Origin: Candidatus Omnitrophota bacterium | Lineage (GTDB): Bacteria > Omnitrophota > Gorgyraeia > Zapsychrales > Fredricksoniimonadaceae | Direction: 5' to 3' | DNA: 61,339 nt | Assembly: GCA_903836515.1 (NCBI GenBank) | Contig: CAILQW010000061.1 | Location: 1 to 61,339 of the forward strand | Part shown: positions 1 to 17,651 of the stretch, piece by piece | Layout of the letters: every line of letters starts with the position of its first letter | Numbering within the stretch: position 1 is the stretch's first letter | Made by a program: the position numbers and the translations under genes | The notes under the pieces: generated by a model | What the model saw: only the letters and a program-made list of their open reading frames with translations | Database searches by the model: none | What the model was told of the DNA's origin: nothing

Positions 1-1
1 C

Positions 2-3000
2 TGGGAAGACCTGAACCTGATGAACAGCCTGGGGATCAACTGGAACGACCTGCAGACGATGACGAATGCGGGGGTCAACTGGGGCGACATGCAGGCGATG
101 AGCGGCGCGGGTGTCAACTGGCAGAATATTGAAGTGATGAGCGACACGGGCGTGAACTGGAGCGATATTCAGACGATGGCCGCCGCGGGCGTCAACTGGT
201 ATGACATGCAGATGATGACATCGACCGGGATCAACTGGTCGGATATGTCGGTGTACACCAACCAGGCGATCAACTGGTCGGATCTTCAGACCTTGACCGA
301 ACAGGGCGTGAACTGGATGGATATGTCGGTGTTCAGCAACCAGGGGATCAACTGGTCGGATATCCAGGTGTTGAGCCAGCAGGGTGTCAACTGGTCGGAT
401 GTTGATGTATTGGCGAAGACAGGGGTCAATTGGTCGGATATCCAGGCGATGAGCGGCGCGGGCGTCAATTGGCAAAATATCGGGGTCATGAGCGATGCCG
501 GGATCAACTGGTCGGATATGGATGTCCTGGCACAAACGGGGATCAATTGGTCGGATGTGGGCATATTGAGCACAACGGGCATCAACTGGTCGGATATGTC
601 AGTCTTCAGCCACCAGGGCGTGAACTGGTCGGATCTTCAGGTCATGACCGAGCAGGGTGTGAACTGGTCGGATATCGATGTGCTGGCCAAGGCCGGGATC
701 AACTGGTCGGATATGGAGGTGCTGAGCACCATCGGTTTAAACTGGGGCGATATGGCGGCGATGACCTCTTCGGCGGTTAACTGGAGCGATCTGCAGGTCA
801 TGAGCGATGTGGGTGTCAACTGGCAGGATGTCGAGGCCATGAGCGCGGCCGGAGTCAATTGGGATGATCTGGGCCATATGGCCGCCACAGGCATCAATTG
901 GTCGGACATGCAAGTGCTTAGCGAACAGGGTGTGAATTGGACGGATATGTCGGTATTCAGTAACCAGGGGATCAACTGGGCGGACATCCAGGTGCTGAGT
1001 CAGCAGGGCGTGAACTGGTCCGATATCGATGTGCTGGCCAAGGCCGGGATCAATTGGTCCGATATGGATGTGTTGAGTACGGCGGGGCTCAACTGGAGCG
1101 ATATGACCGTGATGTCTTCTTCCGGGTTGAACTGGAATGACATGCAGGTCATGAGTTCTTCGGGTGTCAATTGGGAAGATTTGAATCACATGAGTACCGT
1201 GGGCGTCAACTGGGAAGATTTGAACCTGATGAACAGCCTGGGCGTTAATTGGAACGATCTTGAGTCCATGACCAATGCCGGCATCAATTGGCATGACATG
1301 CAGGCGATGACCTCCACCGGGGTTAACTGGTCCGATATGTCGGTGTACACCAACCAGGCGATCAACTGGGCGGATCTTCAGGCCTTGACCGGGCAGGGCG
1401 TGAACTGGATGGATATGTCGGTCTTCAGCAACCAGGGGATCAACTGGTCGGATATCCAGGTGCTGAGTCAGCAGGGCGTGAACTGGTCCGATATCGATGT
1501 GCTGGCCAAGACGGGGATCAACTGGTCGGATATTCAGGTGTTAAGCCAGCAGGGCGTGAACTGGTCCGATATCGATGTCTTGGCCAAGACAGGGATCAAT
1601 TGGTCGGATATGGGTGTTTTGAGTGCGGCCGGGGTGAACTGGAGCGACATGCAGGCGATGAGCGGTGCGGGGGTGAACTGGCAGAATATCGAGGTGATGA
1701 GCGATGCCGGGATCAACTGGTCCGATATCGATACGATGACTACGGCGGGCGTCAATTGGTCCGACCTTCAGACGATGAGCATGACCGGTGTCAACTGGGT
1801 TGACATGTCGGTGTTCAGCAACCAGGGGATCAACTGGTCCGATGTTGAGGTGTTGAGCCAGCAGGGCGTGAATTGGTCAGACCTGGATGTATGGACGAAG
1901 ACCGGCATCAACTGGTCCGATATCCAGGTCATGAGTGCGCAGGGCGTGAACTGGTCGGATATGGATGTGCTGGCCAAGACCGGGATCAACTGGTCGGATA
2001 TCCAGGCGTTGAGCCAGCAGGGGATCAACTGGTCGGATTTCCAGGTGATGACCGGGCAAGGTGTGAACTGGACGGATATGTCGGTGTACACCAACCAGGG
2101 GATCAACTGGTCCGACATCCAGGTGTTAAGTCAGCAGGGTGTGAATTGGTCCGATATCGACGTTCTGGCCAAGACCGGGATCAACTGGTCCAACCTTGAA
2201 ACCATGACGGATGCGGGGGTCAATTGGTCGGATCTTGATATGCTGACAACCCGTGGCGTCAACTGGGACGATATCACGGTCATGAGTGCTTCCGGTGTGA
2301 ACTGGGAAGATTTGAATCATATGAGCACGGTGGGTGTGAACTGGGAAGACCTGAATTTGATGAACAGCCTGGGGGTAAACTGGAACGACCTGGAGGCTAT
2401 GACCAATGCCGGTGTCAACTGGGGCGACATGCAGGCCATGAGCAGCACGGGTGTCAACTGGCAGAATATCGAGGTGATGAGTGATGCGGGCGTCAACTGG
2501 GGCGACCTGCAGGCTCTGACCGCCGCCGGGGTGAACTGGTCCGACCTGCAGGCGATGACGGCGTCCGGGGTGAACTGGACCGATATGTCGGTCTACACCA
2601 ATCAGGCGATCAACTGGTCGGATCTAGAGGTGTTGAGCCAGCAGGGCGTGAACTGGTCGGATGTTCAGGTGTTGAGTCAGCAGGGCATCAACTGGTCGGA
2701 TATTGATGTGCTGGCCAAGACCGGGGTCAACTGGACGGATATTGATGTGCTGGCCAAGACCGGGATCAACTGGTCGGATATGGGTGTCCTGAGTGCGGCC
2801 GGAGTCAACTGGAGTGATATGCAGGCGATGACCCTGGCGGGGATCAACTGGAGCGACATGCAGGCGTTGAGCGCTTCGGGCGTCAACTGGTCCGATTTGA
2901 ATATCATGACAGATGCCGGGATCAACTGGTCTGACTGGAGTACCATGACCAATATCGGGGTCAACTGGTCGGATCTTCAGGCAATGGCCGGCATCGGCGT

Positions 3001-5686
3001 GAACTGGTCCGATCTTGAGGTGATGAGTGTTAATGGCGTGAACTGGTTTGACCTGGCGGCGATGACCACCAATGTCTTGAATTGGGCAGACCTTTCCACC
3101 ATGACACAGGCTTCTGTCAATTGGCAGGATATGGCGGTTTTCAGTGCATCCGGTGTCAACTGGGCAGACCTTTCCATGATGGCCACGGCGGGTATCAATT
3201 GGTCTGACATGCAGGCGATGAGCGACATGGCGATCAACTGGGCTGATTGGCAGGTTTTGTCGGGACAGGGTGTCAACTGGAGCGATATCGGGGTCATGTC
3301 TGCGGCCGGCATGAACTGGTCCGGCATGGCCTACATGACGACTACGGGTGTGAACTGGGATGATCTGGCGGGTCTTTCCAGGGCAGGGGCGAACTGGCAG
3401 GATTTTGAGGTGATGTCGGACATCGGGGTCAACTGGGACAGCTTCAGCGGCATGACCAATGCCGCTGTTAACTGGGATGATTTTGTGACCCTGACCCGAC
3501 TGGGGATCAACTGGCAGGATATCGATGCCATGTCGAATGCGCAGGTCAACTGGCAGGACATGAACCAGATGACGACCCGCGGCGTCAACTGGGATGACCT
3601 GACGGTCATGACCGATGCGGGTGTCAACTGGAACGATATTGTTACGATGTCGGCGGCAGGTGTCAATTGGGACGATATGACAGCCATGAGCGCGATGGGG
3701 GTCAACTGGTCCGACATGCAGGCCATGACCGATGCGGGTGTCAATTGGGATGATGTTTCCACGCTTACTAACCAGGGTGTCAACTGGTCGGATATCCAGG
3801 TGTTGAGCCAGCAGGGTATCAATTGGTCGGATATCGATGTGCTGGCCAAGACCGGCATTAACTGGTCGGATATCCAGGTGCTCAGCCAGGAAGGTGTCAA
3901 TTGGTCGGATATCGGGGTTTTAGCGGGGACCGGAATCAATTGGTCGGATATTGCGGCCATGGCAGGTACAGGTGTCAACTGGACGGACCTCGAGGCTTTG
4001 AGCGCGGCCGGGATCAACTGGTCGGACATGTCGGTTTTTACGGGCCAGGGGATCAATTGGGCGGATATGGAGACATTGAGTACCCAGGGGATCAACTGGT
4101 CTGATATCCAGGTATTGAGCGCCCAGGGCATCAATTGGTCGGATATCGATGTGCTGGCCAAGACGGGTATCAACTGGTCGGATATCCAGGCCTTCAGCCA
4201 GGAGGGGATCAACTGGTCTGACCTGCAGTTTATGACGGATGCGGGGGTCAACTGGTCGGACATCCAGGTCATGAGCCAGGGCGGGGTCAATTGGGATGAT
4301 CTGCAGCAGATGACCGTGACAGGCTTAAACTGGTCCGATCTCCAGGTGATGACTGATCTTGGCATCAACTGGGGCAATATGGAAGAAATGCTGGGCACGG
4401 GCGTCAACTGGTCTTCGCTGGCCGGGATGTCCCTGACAAGCGTCAACTGGGATGATATGGCCGCCATGACCACCGACGGCGTGAACTGGATGAGCCTTGC
4501 ACAAATGTCAGAGGCCGGGGTGAACTGGGCCAGCGTTGACGTGATGACAGCTTCCGGTGTGAACTGGGATGATGTGGCCCTGCTGACAACCACAGGGGTT
4601 AATTGGGACAGCCTGCAGTTTATGAGCAATGCGGGTGTGAACTGGGATGATATCCAGGCTATGTCCTCCACCGCTGTCAACTGGGACGGTTTGCAGACCG
4701 TCAGTGAAACAGGTGTCAACTGGAGCGATCTGGGGGTCATGACCAACCAGGGGATGAACTGGGAGAATCTTACGGTGATGACGGCCTCCGGCATGAATTG
4801 GGAAGATCTCCAGGCCTTGACCACGACGGGCGTGAACTGGGACAATTTCAGCGCCATGTCCAACGACGGCATCAACTGGTCGGCGTTGGGAGTTATGACG
4901 GAGAGTGCTGTCAATTGGGATGATCTGAGCGTTCTGACCGGCGCCGGGATGAACTGGGCCAATATGAATGATATGACAACGGTGGGGGTCAACTGGGCTA
5001 ATTTGAGCGAGCTGACGGTCGCGGCTGTGAATTGGGACGAGTTCGGGGCCATGTCGGCGGCAGGGATCAACTGGATCAATATCAGCGAGATGTCCGAGAA
5101 TGCGGTCAACTGGAGCGGTGTGGCGGATATGGCGGCGGCCGGGATCAACTGGGGAGAGATCGGTCATCTTTCGGAATCCAATGTCAACTGGTCCGATCTG
5201 GGGGCCATGACCGATGCTGGCATCAACTGGTATGATATCGGTGTGATGAGTGACACCGGTGTCAACTGGGAAGGGATATCGGTCTTCAGTGCCGCCACGA
5301 TCAACTGGGAAGGGATCGGGGATATGAGTAACGGCGGCGTCAACTGGGCCAATATCGGAGAGCTTTCTGCCGCCGGGATCAACTGGGATGAGATTGATCA
5401 TCTTTCCCGTCAGGGCCTTAACTGGGACGAGATCGGTGAGTTGACGACCAGCGGCATTAACTGGAATGACATCGCCCAGATGACGGCGAGCGGTATTAAT
5501 TGGGATGATGTCACGGCCATGACAACGAGCACGGTCAACTGGTCCGATTTCTCCAGCATGACGGGATCCAGCGTCAATTGGGATGAGCTTGCCGAGTCGA
5601 CCACCAGCAATGTGAATTGGGCGGACATGTCCAGCATGACCCACCAGAACATTGATTGGAGCGAGATGAGCTATTTCTCGAAGAAC
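2..5686 (+). repeat. Coding tandem repeat, 39-nt period, 145 full units
   Basis: Trp codons fall at 41+39n from 41 to 5657 with no indel (hand-checked at 41, 1211, 2342, 5657). Confidence 0.95.
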
Positions 5687-6376
5687 GCCCGCACGCTTAT
5701 CAGCGAGATGGATGCAGTGTACACCAGGATCGGGTCTGTCACGGATACCAGTTCTGCTAATACCCTTTTTGGCAGGATACAGAAAATACTGGATGCGGTG
5801 GGGTCAAGCGACCTGTCGACGATCATAGCGACGCTCGGGAAAGCCACGGATGCGGGCACGGCCGGAACGATCTTCGGGGACATCAACAATATCCAGTCGT
5901 CCCTCGGTACAAGCACCACGTCTTCCACCGTATTCTCCCAGATGGATACCATCCAGGGCTATGCCAAGAAAGGCAAAGACAGTGCGGATGCGGCGCTCGG
6001 TGTGGCCAAGAATATCCAGGAAGACCTGGGTGTCAACGGCGAAACGCCCAGTGCTTATCAGAAACTGAAAGATCTCGAAACGTATATCAAGGACATCCAG
6101 GCGTCGGCCCTGGCCATGGGCAACAAGCAGGATGTCACCGGTGATCTTGCCCAGCAGATGATCGACATGGTCAAGAATTTCATCAACCGCCAGGCCGAGC
6201 TGGCCGGTATCGCCACCAGCGGCCTTGCGGTGGAAGGCCTCTCCGGGAAAAATGCGGGCGATATGGATAAGGTCAACGAGAAGCTTGAAGAGATCGATGC
6301 CAAGATCCTGGCCCTGCGTGAAGCCATGAAGCTTGATGATGTGGTGGTGAAGACCTGGTTTGAAAGCGAGGAATAA
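2..6376 (+). CDS. Giant 13-aa tandem-repeat protein (G-[VI]-N-W-x-D), 5'-truncated by the window edge; non-repetitive C-terminal ~240 aa
   Basis: Frame is open from base 2 (WEDLNLMNSLG...), so the true start lies upstream. 145 units, then a helical/coiled-coil tail ending VVKTWFESEE. Next gene starts 3 nt after the stop. Confidence 0.9.
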   Translation, partial: WEDLNLMNSLGINWNDLQTMTNAGVNWGDMQAMSGAGVNWQNIEVMSDTGVNWSDIQTMAAAGVNWYDMQMMTSTGINWSDMSVYTNQAINWSDLQTLTEQGVNWMDMSVFSNQGINWSDIQVLSQQGVNWSDVDVLAKTGVNWSDIQAMSGAGVNWQNIGVMSDAGINWSDMDVLAQTGINWSDVGILSTTGINWSDMSVFSHQGVNWSDLQVMTEQGVNWSDIDVLAKAGINWSDMEVLSTIGLNWGDMAAMTSSAVNWSDLQVMSDVGVNWQDVEAMSAAGVNWDDLGHMAATGINWSDMQVLSEQGVNWTDMSVFSNQGINWADIQVLSQQGVNWSDIDVLAKAGINWSDMDVLSTAGLNWSDMTVMSSSGLNWNDMQVMSSSGVNWEDLNHMSTVGVNWEDLNLMNSLGVNWNDLESMTNAGINWHDMQAMTSTGVNWSDMSVYTNQAINWADLQALTGQGVNWMDMSVFSNQGINWSDIQVLSQQGVNWSDIDVLAKTGINWSDIQVLSQQGVNWSDIDVLAKTGINWSDMGVLSAAGVNWSDMQAMSGAGVNWQNIEVMSDAGINWSDIDTMTTAGVNWSDLQTMSMTGVNWVDMSVFSNQGINWSDVEVLSQQGVNWSDLDVWTKTGINWSDIQVMSAQGVNWSDMDVLAKTGINWSDIQALSQQGINWSDFQVMTGQGVNWTDMSVYTNQGINWSDIQVLSQQGVNWSDIDVLAKTGINWSNLETMTDAGVNWSDLDMLTTRGVNWDDITVMSASGVNWEDLNHMSTVGVNWEDLNLMNSLGVNWNDLEAMTNAGVNWGDMQAMSSTGVNWQNIEVMSDAGVNWGDLQALTAAGVNWSDLQAMTASGVNWTDMSVYTNQAINWSDLEVLSQQGVNWSDVQVLSQQGINWSDIDVLAKTGVNWTDIDVLAKTGINWSDMGVLSAAGVNWSDMQAMTLAGINWSDMQALSASGVNWSDLNIMTDAGINWSDWSTMTNIGVNWSDLQAMAGIGVNWSDLEVMSVNGVNWFDLAAMTTNVLNWADLSTMTQASVNWQDMAVFSASGVNWADLSMMATAGINWSDMQAMSDMAINWADWQVLSGQGVNWSDIGVMSAAGMNWSGMAYMTTTGVNWDDLAGLSRAGANWQDFEVMSDIGVNWDSFSGMTNAAVNWDDFVTLTRLGINWQDIDAMSNAQVNWQDMNQMTTRGVNWDDLTVMTDAGVNWNDIVTMSAAGVNWDDMTAMSAMGVNWSDMQAMTDAGVNWDDVSTLTNQGVNWSDIQVLSQQGINWSDIDVLAKTGINWSDIQVLSQEGVNWSDIGVLAGTGINWSDIAAMAGTGVNWTDLEALSAAGINWSDMSVFTGQGINWADMETLSTQGINWSDIQVLSAQGINWSDIDVLAKTGINWSDIQAFSQEGINWSDLQFMTDAGVNWSDIQVMSQGGVNWDDLQQMTVTGLNWSDLQVMTDLGINWGNMEEMLGTGVNWSSLAGMSLTSVNWDDMAAMTTDGVNWMSLAQMSEAGVNWASVDVMTASGVNWDDVALLTTTGVNWDSLQFMSNAGVNWDDIQAMSSTAVNWDGLQTVSETGVNWSDLGVMTNQGMNWENLTVMTASGMNWEDLQALTTTGVNWDNFSAMSNDGINWSALGVMTESAVNWDDLSVLTGAGMNWANMNDMTTVGVNWANLSELTVAAVNWDEFGAMSAAGINWINISEMSENAVNWSGVADMAAAGINWGEIGHLSESNVNWSDLGAMTDAGINWYDIGVMSDTGVNWEGISVFSAATINWEGIGDMSNGGVNWANIGELSAAGINWDEIDHLSRQGLNWDEIGELTTSGINWNDIAQMTASGINWDDVTAMTTSTVNWSDFSSMTGSSVNWDELAESTTSNVNWADMSSMTHQNIDWSEMSYFSKNARTLISEMDAVYTRIGSVTDTSSANTLFGRIQKILDAVGSSDLSTIIATLGKATDAGTAGTIFGDINNIQSSLGTSTTSSTVFSQMDTIQGYAKKGKDSADAALGVAKNIQEDLGVNGETPSAYQKLKDLETYIKDIQASALAMGNKQDVTGDLAQQMIDMVKNFINRQAELAGIATSGLAVEGLSGKNAGDMDKVNEKLEEIDAKILALREAMKLDDVVVKTWFESEE

Positions 6377-6379: not shown

Positions 6380-7711
6380 ATGGGGCTGCGTACAGGGGTG
6401 TCCGGCAGGGGGTGGGGTATTCTTGCCGCTTCCTTTTGGGGGCTCGTCCTCCTTGTCCCTTTGGCGTATGCTGACATTGTGATCAATGTCCTGGCAGTCA
6501 ATGGGACGGACCAGCCTCAGAAAAAGAATATCGAATTCAGCCTCCCGGGAGAACTGAAGCCCGAGGATGTTGTTGATAATGCCGGGCTTCAGCTTGATTA
6601 TAATGTCAAGGATGCCGGGTATTTCCTGCACGGCGATGTTGATCTTCAGTCCAAGGAGACAAAGACCTTCCGGGTCCATGTGCGTGATGTCTGGCGTATC
6701 GGCGATACCGCAGTGGGCGCGCTGCGCGATGACATCGAGCGCGGGTACAGGGAAATGGGCGGCGAGCGCGATGCCGCCAATGCCGGGAAGCTCCGTCAGA
6801 AACTGATCGACAAGCTTGATTATATCCTTGCAGAACAGGACAGGTCTGCCGGCAACATCGATGCGCGCATCGATGCCTACCGCAATCATACCCAGACCAT
6901 TGCAGGGATCAGGGCCAAGGCCAAGCTCATCGACTACTGGCGCACCGATGCCGCCATTGCAGATCCGGCCAAGGTCATTAATTTTCTGGTCCAGGTCGAG
7001 AATCCGGGCGAGAAGACCAAGAAGGTCAAGCAGCAGCACTATCTTCCCGCCGAAGTCAGGCCCGAGTATATCACCGACCGCCAGGGTTTCGAGATCCGTT
7101 TCGATGAGAAAAAAGGACAGCCTTTCCTTTTCAGGGAGGATGATTTTGCTCCCGGTGAAAAACGGAAGGTTTCTATCGCCATCCAGGATGTCTGGTTTGT
7201 CCCGGAGAACGAGCTTCAATATGTCCGGGGGCACGCCAAGTACGCCATGGGTGACCTTCAGAAATCAAAGTACATTGATACCGCCAAGGCGCTTTTTAAT
7301 GATATCATCAATAATCTCGATCTGATCGATGCGCTTCAAAAGACGCTCCAGCCGGACATTGAACAGCATATCGGCGCCTACCGTCTTAATGCGGTCAGGT
7401 TCGAGCAGGCGAAGAAGGATCTTGACGCGCTGGAGAAGCTTTTGTCCAGGTTCCGTGCGGACAGGGAAAAAAGCAAGATCAAGAACGTGATGCAGAAGAT
7501 ACAGACCCTGAAGTCCCTGGCCAAGGTTTCCGAAGCGATCCTCGACAAGAAACCGACCGTGAACGCGGCCTGGAAACTGATCGGGTCCGTGATGCTCTTC
7601 CTCGCATTTTTCACGACCATTTATTTCATCACATGGTTTTTCCGCTCTTCCCGGGAGAAAAAACAGGAAGAGATCAAGTACGGCCAGAAGAAAGATGAAG
7701 CGCGCGGTTAA
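6380..7711 (+). CDS. Exported protein with signal peptide, two tandem ~167-aa domains and a C-terminal TM anchor; function unknown
   Basis: N-terminal hydrophobic stretch ending LAYA. Motifs LPxExxPE, DVW and AYR each recur 501 nt apart. TM LIGSVMLFLAFFTTIYFITWFF followed by a basic tail. Confidence 0.85.
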   Translation: MGLRTGVSGRGWGILAASFWGLVLLVPLAYADIVINVLAVNGTDQPQKKNIEFSLPGELKPEDVVDNAGLQLDYNVKDAGYFLHGDVDLQSKETKTFRVHVRDVWRIGDTAVGALRDDIERGYREMGGERDAANAGKLRQKLIDKLDYILAEQDRSAGNIDARIDAYRNHTQTIAGIRAKAKLIDYWRTDAAIADPAKVINFLVQVENPGEKTKKVKQQHYLPAEVRPEYITDRQGFEIRFDEKKGQPFLFREDDFAPGEKRKVSIAIQDVWFVPENELQYVRGHAKYAMGDLQKSKYIDTAKALFNDIINNLDLIDALQKTLQPDIEQHIGAYRLNAVRFEQAKKDLDALEKLLSRFRADREKSKIKNVMQKIQTLKSLAKVSEAILDKKPTVNAAWKLIGSVMLFLAFFTTIYFITWFFRSSREKKQEEIKYGQKKDEARG

Positions 7712-7729: not shown

Positions 7730-9214
7730 ATGAGCATTAAACTGCAGTATACGGAAGTCGGCGTGGTCAAGGCGATCAGGGGCTGTATTGTCATTGTGAC
7801 AGGGCTGTCCAATTGCATCAACGGCCAGCTCATCCGTTTCGGTTACGGCACGTTGGGGATGGTGGTCGGGTTCACGCAGGATGAGGCGCAGGTTCTTATC
7901 CTCAAGGAATCCTCCAAGATCCGTACCGGGGATGAAGCCAATGCGGCGATCGAGCCGCTGGTCACGCCGGCCGGCAAGAATTTTATCGGGCGTATCGTCA
8001 ATCCGCTGGGGGAACCCCTGGACGGGCTGGGCCCCATCGAGGCAGATGTCATGGTCCCGATATTTCCCGAGTCGCCGCCGATCCTCGACCGTCAGCCGTT
8101 GAACAAGACCCTGGAGACCGGCATCAAGGTGCTTGATGCCATGATCCCTATCGGACGGGGTCAGCGGGAGCTGATCCTGGGCGATAAAATGACCGGCAAG
8201 ACCACGTTTGTGACCGATACCATCGTGAACCAGAAGGGCAGCGGGGTCATTTGCATCTACTGTTCCATCGGCAAGGCCCGTGCTTCCATGGCCAAAGTCG
8301 TCCAGCTTTTCAAGGATCGCGGCTGTTTCGATTACAGTATCATCGTGTCTGCGGCGGCATCGTCCACACCGGGACAGCAGTATCTGTCGCCGTATGTCGC
8401 CTGTTCTCTGGGGGAGTATTTCATGCAGCGGGGCATGGACGTGTTCATCGGGTTTGACGATTTCACCAAACACGCCTGGTGTTACCGCGAGATTTCCCTG
8501 CTCCTGGGCCGTCCGCCGGGGCGCGATTCCTATCCGGGAGACATTTTTTATCTCCATTCCAAGATGATCGAGCGCTCCTGCTTTCTCAGCAAGGAGAAGG
8601 GCGGCGGATCCATGACGTTTTTTCCGATCGTCGAGATCCTCGAGGGCGACCTGACCGCCTTTGTGCCTTCGAACCTGGTGTCCATGACCGACGGCCAGAT
8701 CTACCTGAGTTCACAGTTATTCGGGGAGGGCCAGAAACCCGCGCTCGACCTGGGGCTTTCGGTTTCGCGTGTCGGATCCAAGGTCCAGTGGTCCGCGATC
8801 AAGTCCCTTTCGGGCCCGTTGCGCCTGGAATATCTCCAGTACCGCGAACTGCTGAGGCTTTCGAAACTGAAGACCTCCGGCCAGTCCGAGGAAATGAAAC
8901 AAAAACTCAAGCGCGGCGCGATCCTGACCGCCATTCTCCGGCAGGACAAGGACTCCCCGGTCTGCCAGGAGATGCAGGTCCTGATCTTTTATGCGTTCAA
9001 CAAGAAATACTTGAACGATCTCTCCATCGAGCAGGTCAATGCGTTCCAGGACACATGCCTGGATTATGTGGTCAGGAACAAGCCTGAGTTCATGGCGCTG
9101 ATGCGCGAACGGCGCAAACTGGACCCCGAGATCGAGAAAATGCTTGATGAGATGATCAAGGGGCTTGTCATGGGCATCGTGGAACAGACCATGGCCAAGT
9201 CCGACCGCGGTTAA
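7730..9214 (+). CDS. atpA: F-type ATPase alpha-like subunit (divergent, short N-terminus)
   Basis: ETGIKVLDAMIPIGRGQRELILGDKMTGKT, DDFTKHA..YREISLLLGRPPGRDSYPGDIFYLHS, TDGQIYL, SVSRVG (Arg finger). Confidence 0.93.
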   Translation: MSIKLQYTEVGVVKAIRGCIVIVTGLSNCINGQLIRFGYGTLGMVVGFTQDEAQVLILKESSKIRTGDEANAAIEPLVTPAGKNFIGRIVNPLGEPLDGLGPIEADVMVPIFPESPPILDRQPLNKTLETGIKVLDAMIPIGRGQRELILGDKMTGKTTFVTDTIVNQKGSGVICIYCSIGKARASMAKVVQLFKDRGCFDYSIIVSAAASSTPGQQYLSPYVACSLGEYFMQRGMDVFIGFDDFTKHAWCYREISLLLGRPPGRDSYPGDIFYLHSKMIERSCFLSKEKGGGSMTFFPIVEILEGDLTAFVPSNLVSMTDGQIYLSSQLFGEGQKPALDLGLSVSRVGSKVQWSAIKSLSGPLRLEYLQYRELLRLSKLKTSGQSEEMKQKLKRGAILTAILRQDKDSPVCQEMQVLIFYAFNKKYLNDLSIEQVNAFQDTCLDYVVRNKPEFMALMRERRKLDPEIEKMLDEMIKGLVMGIVEQTMAKSDRG

Positions 9215-9228: not shown

Positions 9229-9495
9229 ATGGCGTCATCGTATACCGGAACATTTCGCTGTGTGATCCTCAGCGCCAAACAATTGATCTTTGAGGGCGAG
9301 GTGAACAGCGTTTTTATTTCCGGCGACCGCGGCGAGTACGAGCTTTTAGCCTATCATTACCCCTTGATCGGGATCGTGGCCGGGGATGTGGTCCTGGACT
9401 GGGATAAACGCCTTGTGGTCAAGGGCGGTGTTGTCAGGTTTTTCGCGAACGAATGCACGATCATGATTGAAGAAAAACAGGTCGCATCCGAATGA
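9229..9495 (+). CDS. atpC: F-type ATPase epsilon-like subunit, N-terminal beta domain only
   Basis: FRCVILSAKQLIFEGEVNSVFISGDRGEYELLAYHYPLI matches the epsilon N-terminal pattern. 88 aa, no C-terminal helical hairpin. Confidence 0.8.
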   Translation: MASSYTGTFRCVILSAKQLIFEGEVNSVFISGDRGEYELLAYHYPLIGIVAGDVVLDWDKRLVVKGGVVRFFANECTIMIEEKQVASE

Positions 9496-9546: not shown

Positions 9547-9768
9547 ATGCTGGCAGAAACATTCATTATCCTGATGGTTATGTTCATCGCGGTCCTGGGT
9601 CCGTCTTTGGTTATTTCGGTGCTGGGGTACGCGGTCATCATGGCGTTAAGCCGCAACCCGTCCGCGGCGTCCAAGATTTTCATGGGCATGGCGATCATGC
9701 TGGTGTTCGTCGAGGCGATCTCGATCATTTCGATCCTGATCATTTTTCAGCTTTTTTCGGCAAAATAA
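9547..9768 (+). CDS. atpE: F-type ATPase c-like subunit
   Basis: 73 aa, two TM helices, loop SRNP, conserved carboxylate in FVEA. Confidence 0.85.
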   Translation: MLAETFIILMVMFIAVLGPSLVISVLGYAVIMALSRNPSAASKIFMGMAIMLVFVEAISIISILIIFQLFSAK

Positions 9769-9809
9769 GTTCTGCGGCCGGGGACAGGGCCTGCGGGAGG
9801 GCATGATAC

Positions 9810-10046
9810 ATGGGCGAGCGGTTCATCTATTGGAATGAAGGCCTGGTCTTTATAGGGCTCTTGACGTTCATCGTCGGTGTCCCTTGCCTGGCGGTGGCCA
9901 TTCTCGGGACCCGGCTTATCAACCATATCGGCCGTTATCCCACCAAAAGCGCACGGCTGCAGATGGGTATTTGCAGCCAGCTTCTGGTCATTGTGATCTT
10001 TTCCTTCTTTCTGTTGGCGTTATTTTTTCATGTTTTCTCAGATTAA
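9810..10046 (+). CDS. Second c-like subunit lacking the ion-binding Glu
   Basis: 78 aa, two TM helices, loop GRYP. Aligns without gaps to the preceding c subunit, with Val at the Glu position. Confidence 0.65.
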   Translation: MGERFIYWNEGLVFIGLLTFIVGVPCLAVAILGTRLINHIGRYPTKSARLQMGICSQLLVIVIFSFFLLALFFHVFSD

Positions 10047-10060: not shown

Positions 10061-10816
10061 ATGAACGTCCAGTTAATGGTTGGTTTTGTGCTCAGTCAGG
10101 TCGTCGTGTTCGGCGCTATCCTGGGGCTCCTTTATTATTTCTATGTTTCGCAGACGGACGGGGCCAAACAGCGCCTTGAGCGCGATGCGGAAGCCGCCCG
10201 CGCCCGCGAGGCTGAGCTTAACCGCAAGATCAAGGCTGCGGACGAGGAGCTTGCCGCCCGCCGGAAGGAGCTCGACCAGCTTGAACAGAAAATGAAGATC
10301 GAACTCGAGGCCGAGTCGGCCAAGCACCGGGAAGAGCTGGTCCAGAAGGCCCGCGCGGAAGCGGAAGAGATCATCACCAAGGCCCAGAACGCCGCTGACG
10401 GCATCAGGCGCGATATCGAGAAACAGATGGAACTGAAGATCATCGATCATTCCGTTAATATTCTGGGCGGGGTGTTGACCCGCGGGGCCAGGGTCTCCCT
10501 GGAGAAAGACCTTCTCGAGGAGTTCATCGAACAGTTGAAGAACGTGGACATGTCCCGGATCAGCCTGGACATCAAGAAAGCGGATGTGATCACGTCGGCC
10601 GGGCTGGGCGATACGGATGTCAAGCGCATCAGCGATATCATCAGGGCCAAGACCGGGCGGGACATTGCCCTTAACGCCAAGACCGATGACGCCCATGTGG
10701 CAGGGGTTGTGATCCACTTCGGGAGTCTGCAGCTTGACGGGAGCATTAAAGCGGCGGTCAGGGATGCGGCCTCTGCGCTCAAGGCCGATGTCGAGAAGTC
10801 TTCACAGAAAAAATAA
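10061..10816 (+). CDS. atpF: F-type ATPase b-delta fusion subunit
   Basis: RBS AAGGAG then ATG at 10061. N-terminal TM, long coiled coil, C-terminal delta-like segment (VITSAGL...VAGVVIHFGSLQLDGSI). Confidence 0.82.
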   Translation: MNVQLMVGFVLSQVVVFGAILGLLYYFYVSQTDGAKQRLERDAEAARAREAELNRKIKAADEELAARRKELDQLEQKMKIELEAESAKHREELVQKARAEAEEIITKAQNAADGIRRDIEKQMELKIIDHSVNILGGVLTRGARVSLEKDLLEEFIEQLKNVDMSRISLDIKKADVITSAGLGDTDVKRISDIIRAKTGRDIALNAKTDDAHVAGVVIHFGSLQLDGSIKAAVRDAASALKADVEKSSQKK

Positions 10817-10849: not shown

Positions 10850-13175
<2,326 letters not shown>

Positions 13176-13177: not shown

Positions 13178-14899
13178 ATGCTGAAGCCCGCTGTCAACAA
13201 GACCGTCGGCGAGATCCTTGTCAAGCGTGCTCTTCTTGACGAGGACGGGATGAAGCAGGCCTGTGCGCAGGCCCGTCACGAGAATCTGCGCCTCACCGAC
13301 TACCTGGTCCGTGCCGGTATCCTTAAGGCCCGGGACATCCTTGATGCCCTGTGCGCCGGGATCCCCTGTGATGCTGTGGACTTAAAAGCGCTCGCCATCG
13401 ATAAAAGTGTCATTGAGCGCGTCCCCGTCAAGTTTGCTTCGTATTACCGGTTCATGCCCTTGGCCATCGAAGGGCAGAAGCTGACCCTGGCGGCTTCCGA
13501 GCCGCTCGATATCCATACCCAGGACGATATCCGCGCTCATCTGGGCCTCGAACCCAAGTGCGTTTTGGCCAGCGCCTGGGATGTGGAGGAAGCCCTGAAG
13601 AAATATTACGGGTTCGCTTCGGACACCATCGACAGGATATTGACCCGTGATCCCAAACGTTTCCGCGAACAATCCGGTGATCATGCGGCGATCGAGGATA
13701 TCGAGCGCCAGAGCGAGGACCCGACGGTCACGAAGCTCGTCAATGAGATCATCCTGGAAGCCTACCAGAAGCGCGCCACCGATATTCATATCGAGCCTTA
13801 CCGCAACAGGGTCCGTTTCCGTTACCGCATCGACGGGGTCCTGATCGATGCCAATCTGCCGCCGGAAGCGCGGCATTTTCTGGCCGCCATTCTTTCGCGC
13901 ATCAAGATCATGGCTGAACTGAGCATCACCGAAAAACGCAAGCCGCTCGACGGGAGCGCGGTGGTGCGCGTGGGCGGGCAGGCTTTGGACTTGAGGGTGT
14001 CGACCATTCCTGCCCTGCACGGGGAAAGCATGGTTATCCGCCTTCTGCCGACCACATCGGAGCTCCTTAACCTTGAGAAGCTCGGCTTTAACGCGGATAA
14101 TGCCCGGCGTTTCCGCGATCTTGTCCGGCGTCCCCACGGGGTGGTCTTTGTGACCGGGCCTACGGGCAGCGGCAAGACAACGACCCTTTACGCGTGCCTG
14201 AACGAGATCAACGACCCTTCCCGCAAGATCATCACCATCGAGGATCCCGTAGAGTACGAGATGGACGGCATCACGCAGATCCAGGTGAACGCGGATGTCA
14301 ATTTCAGCTTTGCCGACGGACTTCGCAGCGTCCTGCGTCATGACCCTGATATCCTGATGGTGGGTGAGGTGCGCGACACGGAGACCGCCAACATCGCCAT
14401 CCGTACGGCCCTCACCGGGCATCTTGTTTTTTCATCCCTTCATACCAACGATGCGGCCAGCGCCGTGACGCGCCTGGTGGACATGGGAGTTGAACCCTAC
14501 CTGGTCGCCTCGAGTGTCCAGGCGTTTGTGGCCCAGCGGCTCGTCCGGGTCATTTGCCCGCACTGCCGGGAAGAGGATGCCTCATCCCTGACGGATATCC
14601 GCCAGGAGATCGCCCGCAGCCTTGGCGATGTCGAGGCCTCCCGGGTTGTCATTTTTCGGGGTCGTGGCTGTGATGCCTGCAATAATACGGGGTATTACGG
14701 GCGGACAGCCATTTACGAGATATTGGAACTTGACGAGCAGATCCGGGCCGTTATCCTGGACAAGCCACGGGCCGAGGAGATCCGGCGTATCGCCATTGAG
14801 CGCGGTATGCGCACCCTGCGCCAGGACGGATGGAAGAATGTGGCCAACGGGGTGACCACTCCGGCGGAAGTCATGAACGTGACCATGAAAGAGGATTGA
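13178..14899 (+). CDS. gspE: T2SS/T4P assembly ATPase (GspE/PilB family)
   Basis: GPTGSGKTTT, TIEDPVEY, LRHDPDILMVGEVRD, TGHLVFSSLHTND, CPHC...CDAC zinc motif. Confidence 0.95.
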   Translation: MLKPAVNKTVGEILVKRALLDEDGMKQACAQARHENLRLTDYLVRAGILKARDILDALCAGIPCDAVDLKALAIDKSVIERVPVKFASYYRFMPLAIEGQKLTLAASEPLDIHTQDDIRAHLGLEPKCVLASAWDVEEALKKYYGFASDTIDRILTRDPKRFREQSGDHAAIEDIERQSEDPTVTKLVNEIILEAYQKRATDIHIEPYRNRVRFRYRIDGVLIDANLPPEARHFLAAILSRIKIMAELSITEKRKPLDGSAVVRVGGQALDLRVSTIPALHGESMVIRLLPTTSELLNLEKLGFNADNARRFRDLVRRPHGVVFVTGPTGSGKTTTLYACLNEINDPSRKIITIEDPVEYEMDGITQIQVNADVNFSFADGLRSVLRHDPDILMVGEVRDTETANIAIRTALTGHLVFSSLHTNDAASAVTRLVDMGVEPYLVASSVQAFVAQRLVRVICPHCREEDASSLTDIRQEIARSLGDVEASRVVIFRGRGCDACNNTGYYGRTAIYEILELDEQIRAVILDKPRAEEIRRIAIERGMRTLRQDGWKNVANGVTTPAEVMNVTMKED

Positions 14900-14904: not shown

Positions 14905-16119
14905 GTGCCGGTATTTATTTATAAAGCCAAGAAAGAAGATGCCGTGACCGTGACGGGGGAAGTCACGGCGCGCGATGCCGACGAGGCCCTGGACATGGTG
15001 GTCCGCCAGGGCTTGCTGCCGGTCAGTGTCGATGAAAAGGGGGCCAATGCCCTTCCCGGTGCTGTCCGGGGGCAGGGGGTCAAGCCGCGCCAGATCCATG
15101 CCTTTACCCGTCAGCTGGGGAGCCTGCTCAGGTCGGGCGTTCCTCTGCTGAGGGCGCTTGAGGTCCTCGCACGCCAGATGCATGCGCCCCGTGACGCGCA
15201 TTTCGCGGGCATTGTCCGTGATGTGGCGCTCAATCTGCGCAACGGCCGTTCATTTTCAGCCTGTCTCGCCGAGCATCCCCGGGTGTTCGCGGATATTTAT
15301 GTCACCATGGTCCGCGCCGGTGAGGAAAGCGGGCGGTTGAAAGAAGTTCTCGAAAGCCTGGCCGTCTACGAACGCAAGCAGGATGAAATCGCCCGCCAGG
15401 TACGCGGCGCCCTGGTGTATCCGGCGTTCATGCTGATGGTGGGGGTGTGTACCGTTTTCTTTATCCTGAGTTTTGTGATGCCCAAGATCGCTGTTCTTTT
15501 TGAAGGTATGCGTGTCGCCCTGCCGTGGCCGACCCGGTTTGTCATGGGCTTAAGCCGGGCTGTCCGCGTGGCGTGGCCCGTATTGCTGGGCCTGGCCATG
15601 GCCGCGGCCGCGGGCGCGCGTTTTATGGCCCTGGCCCCGCAGATCCGCCGCAGGTTCATGGCGTTTGTGGCCGCGCTGCCCTTCATCCGTGAATTCACGG
15701 TCAAGACGGATATGGAACGTTTTGCCCGCACCCTGGCCCTGCTTTTGGGGAGCGGTGTCCCGATCCTCAAGGCCCTGGAGACGGCGGTGCCATCCCTGGC
15801 GTATGAGCCGTTGCGGCGGGAGCTTTCCCTTTGCCAGGAGCGTGTGGCGGGCGGCGCATCCCTGGGGGCGTGCCTGCGCGAATCGCCGCATATTCCCGAC
15901 ATCATGGTGCAGATCATCGCGATTGGCGAGGAAACCGGGGAACTGGCCGGGTCGCTTAAGGACGTTGCCGATACGTATGAACAGGAGATCGCCGAAACCA
16001 CCCGTTCGATGACGACGCTCCTGGAACCGCTCCTGATCCTGGCTGTGGGGCTTGTGGTGGGATTTATTGTCCTGGCGATGCTGCTGCCCATCTTCCGGAT
16101 GGACATGTTCGCTTCCTGA
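14905..16119 (+). CDS. gspF: T2SS/T4P inner-membrane platform protein (GspF/PilC)
   Basis: GTG start after GAGGA gives MPVFIYKAK. FTRQLGSLLRSGVPLLRAL, MVRAGEESG, IAIGEETGEL, three TM segments. Confidence 0.93.
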   Translation: MPVFIYKAKKEDAVTVTGEVTARDADEALDMVVRQGLLPVSVDEKGANALPGAVRGQGVKPRQIHAFTRQLGSLLRSGVPLLRALEVLARQMHAPRDAHFAGIVRDVALNLRNGRSFSACLAEHPRVFADIYVTMVRAGEESGRLKEVLESLAVYERKQDEIARQVRGALVYPAFMLMVGVCTVFFILSFVMPKIAVLFEGMRVALPWPTRFVMGLSRAVRVAWPVLLGLAMAAAAGARFMALAPQIRRRFMAFVAALPFIREFTVKTDMERFARTLALLLGSGVPILKALETAVPSLAYEPLRRELSLCQERVAGGASLGACLRESPHIPDIMVQIIAIGEETGELAGSLKDVADTYEQEIAETTRSMTTLLEPLLILAVGLVVGFIVLAMLLPIFRMDMFAS

Positions 16120-16217: not shown

Positions 16218-16643
16218 ATGATTGACGGCACAACCATGTTTCGGCGCCGGGGGTTCACGCTCATCGAGATCATGCTTGTGGTCATCATCATCGGGGCGCT
16301 GGCCGCGATGATCGTCCCGCGCCTGGCGGGGCGTTCCGAACAGGCCAAGGCCGCGGTCGCTAAAGCGGACCTGATGAACATCGCCACGGCGCTTAAGCTT
16401 TATGAGCTGGATAACGGGGGATTTCCTGCTACGGCCCAGGGGCTTGCTGCCTTGCGCGAACGACCTTCCGGTGCGCCCGTTCCCCGGAACTGGAACGGCC
16501 CTTACCTTGAAAAAGACCCTGTGGATCCGTGGGGGAATGCGTATATTTATGCCGCACCGGGAACGCACCGCCCGGATTATGACCTTTCATCCAGGGGCAA
16601 GGATGTGGCTTCAGCGGATGATGATGTTGTCAACTGGCAGTAG
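16218..16643 (+). CDS. gspG: Major pseudopilin GspG
   Basis: RBS GGAGG. G|FTLIEIMLVVIIIG prepilin motif, LKLYELDNGGFP, WNGPYL...DPWG. Confidence 0.93.
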   Translation: MIDGTTMFRRRGFTLIEIMLVVIIIGALAAMIVPRLAGRSEQAKAAVAKADLMNIATALKLYELDNGGFPATAQGLAALRERPSGAPVPRNWNGPYLEKDPVDPWGNAYIYAAPGTHRPDYDLSSRGKDVASADDDVVNWQ

Positions 16644-17064
16644 CCGTTCCCGGCGCCGGCAGGGCATCACCTTCATTGAAGTGATGCTGGCGGTGGTCAT
16701 CCTGTCGGGAGGGCTTGTGGCGCTTTACCGGTGTTTCTTTTCCGCCGTGGATTATCTGGACCGCCTGTCCACGCGGCTGTATGCGTTCAATCTCCTTGAA
16801 GGGCGTATGGCCGCGGTCGAGAAAGAGTTTCGTTCCCCGAAGGATTTTGATATCGGTCTGCTGGATGAAGAAGTCGTGATCAACAACCGTCCCGTGGCGT
16901 TCCATTATAATGTTAACCTGAAACCTGTGGGCACCCTCCTGTCGGTCTTTGAACTGGACATGGACCTTTCGTGGCAGGAGCGCGGGCGCCGTGTCACGCT
17001 TTCGCGCACGGCCTATGTTTCAGGTGTCACCGCCATATCCCCGGCGGAAGGGAAGGGAACCTGA
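16621..17064 (+). CDS. Minor pseudopilin, GspI-like
   Basis: RRQG|ITFIEVMLAVVIL prepilin motif. Start ambiguous among ATGs at 16618, 16621 and 16624. Confidence 0.78.
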   Translation: MMLSTGSSRSRRRQGITFIEVMLAVVILSGGLVALYRCFFSAVDYLDRLSTRLYAFNLLEGRMAAVEKEFRSPKDFDIGLLDEEVVINNRPVAFHYNVNLKPVGTLLSVFELDMDLSWQERGRRVTLSRTAYVSGVTAISPAEGKGT

Positions 17065-17651
17065 TGCGCCGGCGCGCCTTCACCTTTATCGAGATCATGC
17101 TGGTAGCGGCTCTTTTTGCCATTCTGTCGACCGCCATTTTTACGTGTCTGCTTAACGGGATCAGGCTCTCGGACCGGGCCCGCCAGATGATGTCCGGAGA
17201 GGATTCGCTTATTTTCTTCGACCGCATGGCCTCGGACCTGCGCAACACGTTTCATTTTGCCAACATCGATCTAGCCGGTGAAGAGGGGCGCATGGCATTC
17301 CCGTGCGTTGTCTGGACGCCGGCCGACCGTGTGAGCATGCGTGCCCCTGAAGGCGTTGTCGACCAGATCGGCCGTGTGGCGTATGATTATGATCCTGTGC
17401 GTGAAGCTGTGGTCCGCCGCCAGGCCAATTATTCCCAGGCGATGGCCGGGGGGTGGGGGGCTGACACGGTGCTGGTCAAGGGGGTCAAGGGGCTGCGCTT
17501 CCGTTATTTTCACGGCGTATCCGGCGAAGCGTCCACGCACCTGGAACCCACGGACGAGATACCTTCCGGTGTTGAGGTCGAACTCCATGTGATCCAGGCG
17601 GGAGAAGAACGGGTGCTCAAACGTTATATCGCTATTCCGGCGGGGGTGTAA
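17064..17651 (+). CDS. Minor pseudopilin, GspJ-like
   Basis: TGATG overlap with the upstream gene. MRRRA|FTFIEIMLVAAL, RMASDLRN. Confidence 0.8.
   Translation: MRRRAFTFIEIMLVAALFAILSTAIFTCLLNGIRLSDRARQMMSGEDSLIFFDRMASDLRNTFHFANIDLAGEEGRMAFPCVVWTPADRVSMRAPEGVVDQIGRVAYDYDPVREAVVRRQANYSQAMAGGWGADTVLVKGVKGLRFRYFHGVSGEASTHLEPTDEIPSGVEVELHVIQAGEERVLKRYIAIPAGV

What the first reader, a model, noticed from the sequence alone, without database searches (positions are those of the whole stretch)
9547..10046. Two c-like subunits, one lacking the carboxylate
Seen: gap-free alignment PSLVISVLGYAVIMALSRNPSAASKIFMGMAIMLVFVE versus PCLAVAILGTRLINHIGRYPTKSARLQMGICSQLLVIV, so Glu is replaced by Val. Both lack the GxGxGxG packing motif of helix 1, and c1 has E-A rather than the E-S/T of Na+-binding rings. 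Inference: a heteromeric ring of unusual diameter or with an asymmetric landmark, possibly enclosing or gripping another protein.
Basis: partly seen in the sequence, partly recalled or inferred. Interest (0 to 1): 0.68.

Follow-up and report, generated by a model that had tools for sequence, protein, structure and literature searches.

The report
Two c-subunit paralogues, a-less rotary ATPase
Two small neighbouring genes both encode ATP-synthase c-type membrane hairpins in an Omnitrophota rotary-ATPase operon that has no a subunit and is joined to a pilus/secretion gene cluster. The missing acidic residue in the second one is a private change of this strain, not a feature of the family.

Summary
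9547-9768 (c1, 73 aa) and 9810-10046 (c2, 78 aa) align without gaps, and c1 Glu56 lies opposite c2 Val62 (Smith-Waterman 83 against 28±5 for shuffles; BLASTP E 1e-6).

c2 is a true c-subunit paralogue. hhalign of the c2 family against the c1 family gives 97.8% probability and E 8e-13. The AlphaFold hairpin's 50 PDB fold matches are all F-type c subunits. Nothing matches AtpI, AtpQ or AtpR.

The Glu is ancestral in c2: 63 E and 3 D in 80 species-level loci, and E in all four close homologues. The window's GTG is one base from GAG. It is real (identical in four independent assemblies), and it is one of at least 9 shallow, independent losses.

The wider context is more interesting. All 80 loci keep the order p443-α-ε-c1-c2-bδ-γ-β-GspE-GspF-GspG. 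None encodes an a subunit. c1 is the best-conserved protein of the operon (80% median identity, Glu 81/82), whereas c2 evolves as fast as the stalk (39%).

This is the published Omnitrophota 'symbiotic' F-ATPase/pilus locus, whose membrane sector has not been described in the papers I found. My best reading is a c1-dominated ring with a minor, symmetry-breaking c2, turned by ATP hydrolysis rather than by ions. The ring itself is untested.

The parts
1..6376 (+). 3' part of a giant repeat protein built from about 13-aa 'G-V/I-N-W-S-D' units. The reading frame runs off the window's 5' end, and its stop lies 3 nt before the next gene.
   Evidence: 39-nt period. (PF25533 Lysostaphin_N, 209 bits). 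The syntenic upstream gene exceeds 3832 aa in a relative.
6380..7711 (+). p443: a conserved protein of unknown function. It has a signal or N-terminal TM helix, two repeats of β-sandwich plus 3-helix bundle, a long helix and a C-terminal TM helix. It always lies immediately upstream of α.
   Evidence: No Pfam family. AF2 pLDDT 84. No PDB fold match. Present in all loci that reach that far.
7730..9214 (+). F1 α subunit (Walker A GDKMTGKT)
   Evidence: TIGR00962 530 bits, above its cut-off of 484. Pfam ATP-synt_ab.
9229..9495 (+). ε subunit, β-sandwich domain only (88 aa); no C-terminal helical domain
   Evidence: PF02823 covers residues 9-81 of 88.
9547..9768 (+). c1: F-type c subunit with an R-N-P loop and Glu56. 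It is the most conserved protein of the operon.
   Evidence: PF00137 28.8 bits, above the gathering score of 24. Glu in 81/82. Median identity 80%.
9810..10046 (+). c2: a divergent c-subunit paralogue with Pro25-Cys26 in TM1, an x-Y-P loop, and Val62 where the family has Glu
   Evidence: hhalign against c1: 97.8%, E 7.8e-13. AF2 hairpin, and 50/50 Foldseek hits are c subunits. The two best PDB profile hits are c subunits.
9993..9995 (+). GTG codon (Val62 of c2) at the family's Glu position, one transversion from GAG
   Evidence: Identical in four independent assemblies.
10061..10816 (+). b-δ fusion: an N-terminal TM helix, a coiled coil and an OSCP/δ-like C-terminal domain. This is the peripheral stalk.
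   Evidence: PF00213, residues 99-239. TIGR03321 and delta models lie below their cut-offs. No conserved intramembrane Arg.
10850..11704 (+). γ subunit
   Evidence: PF00231 90 bits.
11733..13175 (+). F1 β subunit with intact Walker A (GGAGCGKT), GERIREGN and Walker B
   Evidence: TIGR01039 530 bits, above its cut-off of 463. Sequence.
13178..14899 (+). GspE/PilB-type secretion ATPase; it starts 2 nt after the β stop
   Evidence: PF00437 430 bits and MshEN.
14905..16119 (+). GspF/PilC platform protein
   Evidence: PF00482 210 bits.
16218..20842 (+). GspG major pseudopilin, minor pseudopilins (N_methyl, GspJ-like), GspK, a PilM-PilN fusion, and PilO/GspM

Best explanation
Shown. The two genes are paralogous F-type c subunits in the Omnitrophota 'symbiotic' F-type ATPase operon. 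The gene order p443-α-ε-c1-c2-bδ-γ-β, followed directly by GspE-GspF-GspG, is fixed across about 80 species. No a subunit is encoded in the window or within ±10 kb of any locus. c2 ancestrally carries the TM2 Glu. The window's c2 has a private, real Glu62-to-Val change (GAG to GTG), one of at least 9 independent shallow losses. c1 keeps its Glu almost without exception.

Inferred. c1 builds the bulk of a c-ring. Its many homotypic contacts would explain why it is the slowest-evolving protein of the operon. c2 is a low-copy, symmetry-breaking member or adaptor of that ring, and its own carboxylate is dispensable. Its polar loop is its best-conserved part and probably docks on γ/ε or on the stalk. 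Three features point to a machine that burns ATP to turn γε and the ring against the bδ stalk: β is catalytically intact, ε lacks its inhibitory C-terminal domain, and there is no a subunit and no conserved intramembrane Arg in any operon-encoded helix. On this reading the torque goes to the adjoining pilus/secretion apparatus or to p443, and the ring is not an ion turbine.
For: c-like identity of c2:
- BLASTP E 1e-6.
- Shuffle z = 11.
- hhalign 97.8%, E 7.8e-13, 74 gap-free columns with coincident Glu columns.
- The two best PDB profile hits are c subunits with the Glu aligned.
- AF2 hairpin with pLDDT 80, and all 50 Foldseek hits are F-type c subunits.
- No AtpI/Q/R hit.

Glu is ancestral in c2 and its loss is private:
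-.
- Fitch root state is acidic, with 9 changes, on the α+β tree.
- The sister loci L002 and L003 carry E and Q.
- The variant is real.

Fixed synteny and no a subunit:
- (80 loci).
- no R-L-x-G-N-type motif in six frames of the window or the loci.
- no PF00119 in the window.
- Tight spacing and no intergenic terminator.

Rate asymmetry: c1 80% median identity, c2 39%, bδ 42%, p443 38%.

ATP-driven direction:
- ε is 88 aa with the N-domain only.
- β and α motifs are intact.
- No conserved membrane Arg in bδ. c2 and p443 show no conserved basic residue inside a TM helix.

Literature:
- The ATPase/type-4 pilus co-location in Omnitrophota is published from α/β trees only (PMC10066038).
Against: - No tool here can show that c1 and c2 co-assemble, in what ratio, or that any ring forms.
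- The near-invariant c1 Glu (81/82) is hard to explain if no ions are translocated. It hints at an unidentified stator partner or an a subunit encoded elsewhere in the genome. Whole genomes could not be searched.
- c2 evolves at the rate of the stalk proteins, which fits a stator-side role as well as it fits a minor ring member.
- Distance-residual correlation gave no partner for c2.
- No transcript data were found.
Confidence: 0.55

Rival explanations
1. c2 is not a ring member. It is a stator-side membrane piece: a c-like hairpin that sits beside the c1 ring with the single TM helix of bδ, filling the place left by the missing a subunit and holding the peripheral stalk against the rotor.
For: No a subunit in 80 loci. 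The c2 gene always lies directly upstream of bδ. c2 evolves at the rate of bδ and p443, not of c1. Its carboxylate is dispensable.
Against: Nothing in c2 resembles a subunit a, and it has no conserved intramembrane Arg. Its most conserved stretch is the cytoplasmic x-Y-P loop, which in c subunits contacts γ/ε. Its Glu is still kept in about 80% of lineages at exactly the c-ring position. There is no residual co-variation with bδ (-0.09; a weak test).
Confidence: 0.25
2. One reading: a carboxylate-less c2 is the designed, conserved asymmetric landmark of a heteromeric ring. It would resemble the Glu-less hairpin of Acetobacterium woodii subunit c1 or the V-ATPase c'' subunit.
For: The window's c2 truly lacks the Glu. 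14 of 80 lineages have also lost it. Both paralogues lack the Gly motif.
Against: 66 of 80 loci keep Glu or Asp, including all close relatives. The ancestral state is acidic, and all losses are shallow tips or two-member clades.
Confidence: 0.05
3. The complex is a normal ion-coupled F1Fo whose a subunit is encoded elsewhere in the genome (or is shared with a housekeeping enzyme). On this reading c2 is merely a redundant duplicate drifting towards loss.
For: The invariant c1 Glu and the canonical R-N-P loop. α and β pass the canonical atpA/atpD cut-offs. Some Omnitrophota have a separate 'respiratory' F-ATPase (PMC10066038).
Against: c2 is retained as an intact ORF, with conserved motifs, at the same position in 77 of the 79 loci that cover it. 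The two exceptions look like indel errors in error-prone assemblies, so c2 is not drifting to loss. In every other known F-type operon the a subunit is co-encoded (established knowledge). ε lacks its regulatory domain. Most complete Omnitrophota genomes are reported to lack a complete F1Fo.
Confidence: 0.12
4. The Val codon is a sequencing or assembly error, or c2 is a pseudogene in this strain.
For: A single-base difference from GAG.
Against: Zero differences in contigs from four runs, two studies and two years. The ORF is intact, with a conserved N-terminus and C-terminus.
Confidence: 0.03

Closest known systems
Omnitrophota 'symbiotic' (sF) F-type ATPase / type-4a pilus loci (Seymour et al. 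2023, PMC10066038)
   Same: This is the same locus type: Omnitrophota, with divergent F-type α/β genes directly adjoining a GspE/F/G-PilM/N/O cluster, and giant ORFs nearby.
   Different: That paper rests on α/β phylogeny and co-location. Its main text has no occurrence of the c subunit, c-ring, subunit a or proton. Not described there: the two c paralogues, the bδ fusion, the short ε, the conserved p443 and the absence of a.
Acetobacterium woodii Na+ F1Fo heteromeric c-ring (c2/3 hairpins plus one 4-helix c1 that has lost one carboxylate; PDB 4bem) - from established knowledge; 4bem appears among the fold hits
   Same: An F-type enzyme with more than one c gene in the operon, and one ion-binding site missing in the minor component.
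   Different: In A. woodii the odd subunit is a duplicated 4-helix protein, its carboxylate loss is fixed, the ring binds Na+, and an a subunit is present. Here both are single hairpins, the loss is sporadic, there is no Na+ motif and there is no a.
Eukaryotic V-ATPase c/c'/c'' proteolipid ring (established knowledge)
   Same: Paralogous proteolipids in one ring, with a single-copy symmetry-breaking member and TM helices of other proteins enclosed in the ring lumen.
   Different: These are V-type 4- or 5-helix proteolipids driven against subunit a. There is no sequence relationship closer than the general c family.
Mycoplasma type 2 / type 3 F1-like ATPases (gliding motor MMOB1660/1670; MSC_0618/0619)
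   Same: F1-derived α/β used for something other than ATP synthesis, and embedded in a surface-machinery gene cluster.
   Different: The NCBIfam models for these score below their cut-offs and below canonical atpA/atpD. The Mycoplasma clusters have no c, ε or b/δ (established knowledge), whereas this one has all three.
N-ATPase (alternate F1Fo, atpDCQRBEFAG)
   Same: A b subunit with a δ-like C-terminal half (best NCBIfam hit TIGR03321). It is a second, divergent F-type operon.
   Different: All alt_F1F0 models are far below their cut-offs. There is no AtpQ/AtpR, no a subunit and no Na+-binding c motif, and the gene order differs.

Membership tests
ATP synthase subunit c (PF00137) - c1, 9547-9768 | Matches the family profile above the curated threshold | tested here: met
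   28.8 bits against a gathering score of 24, E 1.5e-6. PDB profile hits are c subunits, E 1.8e-4.
ATP synthase subunit c (PF00137) - c1, 9547-9768 | Polar R-x-P loop and a mid-TM2 carboxylate | tested here: met
   R36-N37-P38 and E56 are invariant in 49 sequences. E in 81/82 loci.
ATP synthase subunit c (PF00137) - c1, 9547-9768 | GxGxGxG (or AxAxAxA) packing motif in TM1 | tested here: not met
   GPSvViA aligned to GPGVGIG of Chloroflexus c.
ATP synthase subunit c (PF00137) - c2, 9810-10046 | Matches the family profile above the curated threshold | tested here: not met
   No PF00137 hit for the window protein at E ≤ 1. Only 2 of 60 family members give weak hits (best E 0.0094).
ATP synthase subunit c (PF00137) - c2, 9810-10046 | Homology to a bona fide c subunit by profile-profile comparison | tested here: met
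   hhalign against the c1 family: probability 97.8%, E 7.8e-13, 74 columns. The two best PDB hits are c subunits.
ATP synthase subunit c (PF00137) - c2, 9810-10046 | Two-helix hairpin fold | tested here: met
   AF2 helices 8-42 and 44-77, pLDDT 80. All 50 Foldseek PDB matches are F-type c subunits, TM 0.35-0.72. Individual E-values are weak (≥1.1), as expected for a small hairpin.
ATP synthase subunit c (PF00137) - c2, 9810-10046 | Mid-TM2 carboxylate | tested here: not met
   Val62 in the window. The family itself meets this feature: E 63 and D 3 of 80.
AtpI / AtpQ / AtpR small membrane proteins of F- and N-ATPase operons | Profile match to PF03899, PF12966 or the related NCBIfam models | tested here: not met
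   None listed at E ≤ 1 for c2 or among the 25 most-matched of the 44 families hit by its 60 relatives.
Canonical ion-coupled F1Fo ATP synthase operon | Subunit a (PF00119, conserved Arg in R-L-x-G-N) encoded with the other subunits | tested here: not met
   No such gene among the window ORFs scanned. No motif in six frames of the window or of 80 loci ±10 kb. The gene order leaves no room for it. Whole genomes were not searchable.
Canonical ion-coupled F1Fo ATP synthase operon | α and β pass the equivalog cut-offs | tested here: met
   TIGR00962 530.3 against 484.45. TIGR01039 530.1 against 462.85.
Canonical ion-coupled F1Fo ATP synthase operon | Full-length ε with a C-terminal helical domain; separate b and δ | tested here: not met
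   ε is 88 aa with the N-domain only. b and δ are fused in one 251-aa protein.
Mycoplasma type 2/3 F1-like ATPases | α/β reach the MMOB1660/1670 or MSC_0619/0618 model cut-offs; the cluster lacks Fo and ε | tested here: not met
   393 against 600, 404 against 850, 290 against 520, and 370 against 570 bits. c1, c2, ε and bδ are present.
N-ATPase | The alt_F1F0 models reach their cut-offs; atpQ/atpR and a are present | tested here: not met
   497 against 750, 446 against 752, 55 against 225, and 16 against 282 bits. No Q, R or a.
Heteromeric c-ring (A. woodii type / V-ATPase type) | Two c-type proteins physically co-assembled in one ring at a defined ratio | not testable with these tools
   Only strict co-occurrence and adjacency of c1 and c2 in 79 of 79 loci covering the site.

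The most novel reading that the evidence does not exclude
A rotary F-type ATPase that has permanently lost its a subunit and works as an ATP-driven mechanical rotor. It would be built into a type-II-secretion/type-4-pilus-like machine that handles a giant repeat adhesin. The fast-evolving c2 hairpin (near-invariant Pro-Cys, conserved loop) would act as the adaptor that breaks ring symmetry and couples the c1 ring to a non-ATPase partner, such as p443's TM helix or the GspF platform. This would be a third use of the F/V rotary scaffold, beside ATP synthesis and ion pumping.
Probability: 0.2. Interest if true: 0.85.

Novelty: new variant of a known kind. Interest (0 to 1): 0.58.

Why it matters
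Every characterised c-ring works against an a subunit. Here an operon conserved across about 80 species keeps a c subunit with a near-invariant Glu, a second c paralogue, a stalk and a full F1, yet never encodes a subunit a. It is welded to a pilus/secretion cluster and a giant surface protein. If the ring turns without ion flow, it is a new mechanical use of the rotary ATPase. If ions do flow, an unknown stator replaces subunit a. Either answer bears on how F-type motors evolve new functions and on how the largely uncultivated Omnitrophota attach to or attack other cells. It mainly shows that c2's carboxylate is dispensable while c1's is not.

Tried and rejected
- **Pfam and NCBIfam scans of c2 and of its 60 relatives.** No AtpI, AtpQ or AtpR hit, and only two sub-threshold PF00137 hits. 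Single-profile libraries are too insensitive for c2; profile-profile comparison was needed.
- **p443.** It has no Pfam or NCBIfam family. A confident AF2 model (pLDDT 84) gave no PDB fold match: best E 0.12, TM below 0.2. Its function remains open.
- **Distance-matrix (mirror-tree) residual correlation across 42 sequences (the window plus 41 loci), to find c2's partner.** c2 correlates with nothing (|r| ≤ 0.10), probably because of saturation. The p443-γ (0.55) and p443-ε (0.44) values are exploratory only.
- **Transcript evidence.** No RNA runs hold the operon.
- **Promoter and terminator scan.** Nothing intergenic within the operon, and terminator-like sites are not above expectation.
- **Assembly error as an explanation of Val62.** Rejected.
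- **Lipoprotein reading of c2's 'VPC'.** Rejected by inspection: Pro at position -1 does not fit a lipobox.

Full report
**What is at the coordinates**

The + strand carries two small ORFs: 9547-9768 (73 aa, 'c1') and 9810-10046 (78 aa, 'c2'). They sit inside a tightly spaced, same-strand gene string:

| Coordinates | Gene |
|---|---|
| 1-6376 | giant 13-aa-repeat protein, running in from the window's 5' end |
| 6380-7711 | conserved 443-aa protein without a family ('p443') |
| 7730-9214 | F1 α |
| 9229-9495 | 88-aa ε with only the β-sandwich domain |
| 9547-9768 | c1 |
| 9810-10046 | c2 |
| 10061-10816 | 251-aa b-δ fusion |
| 10850-11704 | γ |
| 11733-13175 | β |
| from 13178 | GspE, two bases after the β stop |
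| downstream to 20842 | GspF, GspG, minor pseudopilins, GspK, PilM-N, PilO/GspM |

Gaps between genes are 2-51 nt. No terminator-like site falls between genes.

**Checking the observation**

c1 residues 19-56 lie against c2 residues 25-62, with 10 identities and 23 positives of 38. It ends with c1 Glu56 opposite c2 Val62.

The similarity is not a by-product of hydrophobic composition. The Smith-Waterman score is 83. For 5000 shuffles of c2 it is 28.2±4.9, with a maximum of 57. BLASTP with composition adjustment gives E 1e-6.

Both proteins lack the GxGxGxG motif. Against the Chloroflexus c subunit GPGVGIG, c1 reads GPSvViA and c2 reads vPCvLvA. c1 has Glu-Ala.

**Is c2 a c subunit?**

The window's c2 matches no Pfam or NCBIfam family. 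It matches neither ATP-synt_C nor AtpI/AtpQ/AtpR.

An exhaustive HMMER search found only 55 cluster representatives. The profile built from them behaves as follows:

- It aligns to the c1 family profile with 97.8% probability and E 7.8e-13. The alignment covers 74 gap-free columns, and the Glu columns coincide.
- Its two best hits in the PDB sequence set are ATP synthase c subunits, again with the Glu aligned. These hits are marginal, at E 0.6-0.7.
- It yields an AlphaFold hairpin (helices 8-42 and 44-77, pLDDT 80). All 50 of its Foldseek PDB matches are F-type c subunits.

c2 is therefore a divergent c paralogue.

**Is the Glu loss conserved?**

It is not.

- All four close homologues (61-92% identity) have Glu at column 62: LLVLEIFSF against the window's LLVIVIFSF.
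- Among the 50%-identity representatives, 44 of 56 full-length sequences have Glu.
- In 80 species-level genomic loci, c2 has E 63, D 3, Q 3, M 5, F 3, G 2 and V 1. The single V is the window. c1 has E in 81 of 82.
- On an α+β neighbour-joining tree of 59 taxa, the inferred root state is acidic. The carboxylate was lost at least 9 times, always in single tips or two-member clades. The window's nearest relatives carry E (L002) and Q (L003).

The window's GTG (9993-9995) is one transversion from GAG. It is a genuine fixed variant, because contigs from four runs of two studies cover it without a single difference.

The carboxylate-less state is strain-level variation. It shows that c2's carboxylate is dispensable, in sharp contrast with c1's.

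**What the surroundings add**

The organism is an Omnitrophota bacterium from lake water.

All 80 loci recovered with c1 show the same order: p443-α-ε-c1-c2-bδ-γ-β-GspE-GspF-GspG. c2 is present in every locus that covers its position. The two apparent disruptions lie in assemblies in which neighbouring genes are also split.

None of these loci, and nothing in the 61-kb window, encodes an a subunit:

- No PF00119 hit in the window ORFs scanned.
- No R-L-x-G-N-type motif in any frame of the window or of the loci ±10 kb.
- No conserved intramembrane Arg in bδ. c2 and p443 show no conserved basic residue inside a TM helix.

β carries intact Walker A, GERxxEGN and Walker B motifs, and α has its P-loop and VSRVG. 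Both pass the canonical atpA/atpD cut-offs. They fail those of the N-ATPase and of the Mycoplasma type 2/3 F1-like enzymes.

c1 is the most conserved protein of the whole operon, with a median of 80% identity to the window across 67 loci. c2 (39%) evolves like the stalk protein bδ (42%) and p443 (38%).

**How it most likely works**

What is shown:

- two paralogous c hairpins, always together
- an F1 that looks catalytically competent
- a stalk with a single TM anchor
- an ε without its inhibitory domain
- no a subunit nearby
- physical linkage to a pilus/secretion cluster and a giant surface protein

What I infer, with about 55% confidence in the whole picture: c1 forms the bulk of a ring, because homotypic packing constrains nearly every residue. 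c2 is a low-copy, symmetry-breaking member or adaptor. Its cytoplasmic loop (G-x-Y/F-P-S/T-K) and its Pro-Cys in TM1 are its best-kept features. The complex hydrolyses ATP to turn γε and the ring against bδ, and it is not an ion turbine.

The main rival (about 25%) places c2 outside the ring, next to the bδ helix, as a stand-in for the missing a subunit.

A third possibility (about 12%) is an a subunit encoded elsewhere. The near-invariant c1 Glu is the strongest argument for some ion-handling partner. I record it as unexplained.

One locus (L039) has Val in c1, Leu in an extra c1-like copy, and Glu only in c2. Every locus keeps at least one carboxylate-bearing c type.

**Comparison with what is known**

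The co-location of a divergent F-type ATPase with type-4a pilus genes in Omnitrophota has been published. It was interpreted as a 'symbiotic' motor by analogy with Mycoplasma (PMC10066038). That paper's main text never mentions c subunits, a c-ring, subunit a or protons.

The giant-gene preprint notes T2SS-like loci next to giant genes but says nothing about the ATPase. A 2026 preprint notes that most complete Omnitrophota genomes lack a complete F1Fo, and it reports V/A-type ATPase subunits in 70-99% of most Gorgyraeia. That is consistent with a truly a-less complex.

Heteromeric c-rings with a carboxylate-less element are known from A. woodii and from V-ATPases (established knowledge; 4bem is among the fold hits). 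Those rings work against an a subunit, and the loss there is fixed.

The locus is thus a known kind of system whose membrane sector appears undescribed and unusual: a new variant of a known kind.

**Verdict**

c2 is c-like and the pair is conserved, but the Glu loss is not a family trait.
- Interest is moderate to fairly high (0.58). This is mainly because of the conserved a-less architecture with two c paralogues, not because of the Val.

Noticed in passing
window 1-6376 (+): A giant protein made of more than 150 copies of a 13-aa unit (G-V/I-N-W-S/D-D-x-x-x-L/M-S/T-x-x; 39-nt period). Its frame runs off the window's 5' end. It scores 209 bits on PF25533 (Lysostaphin_N, itself a 13-aa-repeat region) and ends in a non-repeat helical tail. 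Its stop is 3 nt before p443, so it is probably co-transcribed with the ATPase.
   Followed up: partly
window 6380-7711 (+): p443 is conserved upstream of α in all loci and has no family. The AF2 model (pLDDT 84) shows an N-terminal signal/TM helix, two repeats of β-sandwich plus 3-helix bundle, a 60-residue helix and a C-terminal TM helix. It has no PDB fold match. Its distance residuals correlate with γ (0.55), ε (0.44) and GspF (0.41), which is exploratory only.
   Followed up: partly
window 9882-9887 (c2 Pro25-Cys26): A near-invariant Pro-Cys (53/60 and 57/60) in TM1 of c2 lies exactly where c subunits have the Gly motif; c1 has Gly-Pro-Ser there. A conserved membrane-embedded Cys is unusual for a c subunit.
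   Followed up: no
L039 7125-7833 (CAYZPQ010000085.1): This locus has three c-type genes. c1 has Val in place of Glu, an extra divergent c1-like copy has Leu there, and c2 has Glu. It is the only locus in which c1 lacks the carboxylate.
   Followed up: partly
window 9229-9495 and 10061-10816 (+): ε is reduced to its β-sandwich domain (88 aa). b and δ are fused into one 251-aa protein with a single TM helix. Both features recur in the syntenic loci.
   Followed up: partly
window 45509-53860 (+): A second very long ORF (2783 aa) has no significant Pfam domain; the only hit is a sub-threshold HlyD_3 match.
   Followed up: no
window 21630-35872 (both strands): An envelope-glycan neighbourhood: UDP-GlcNAc 2-epimerase, two GT2 glycosyltransferases, an 842-aa STT3-like oligosaccharyltransferase (26767-29298, -), LpxB and a GFO/IDH/MocA oxidoreductase. 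Several ORFs of 300-565 aa have no family.
   Followed up: no
window 54508-60545 (+): A putative porin (Porin_5) followed by a Pst-type phosphate ABC transporter (PBP_like_2, two permeases, an ATPase) and PhoU. A SNF2-family helicase lies at 41622-44279 and a HAMP-PAS histidine kinase at 38905-40719.
   Followed up: no
window 13178-21633 (+): No secretin (GspD/PilQ) domain was detected among the scanned ORFs of the pilus/secretion cluster that follows the ATPase. The 565-aa ORF at 23418-25115 has no Pfam hit.
   Followed up: no
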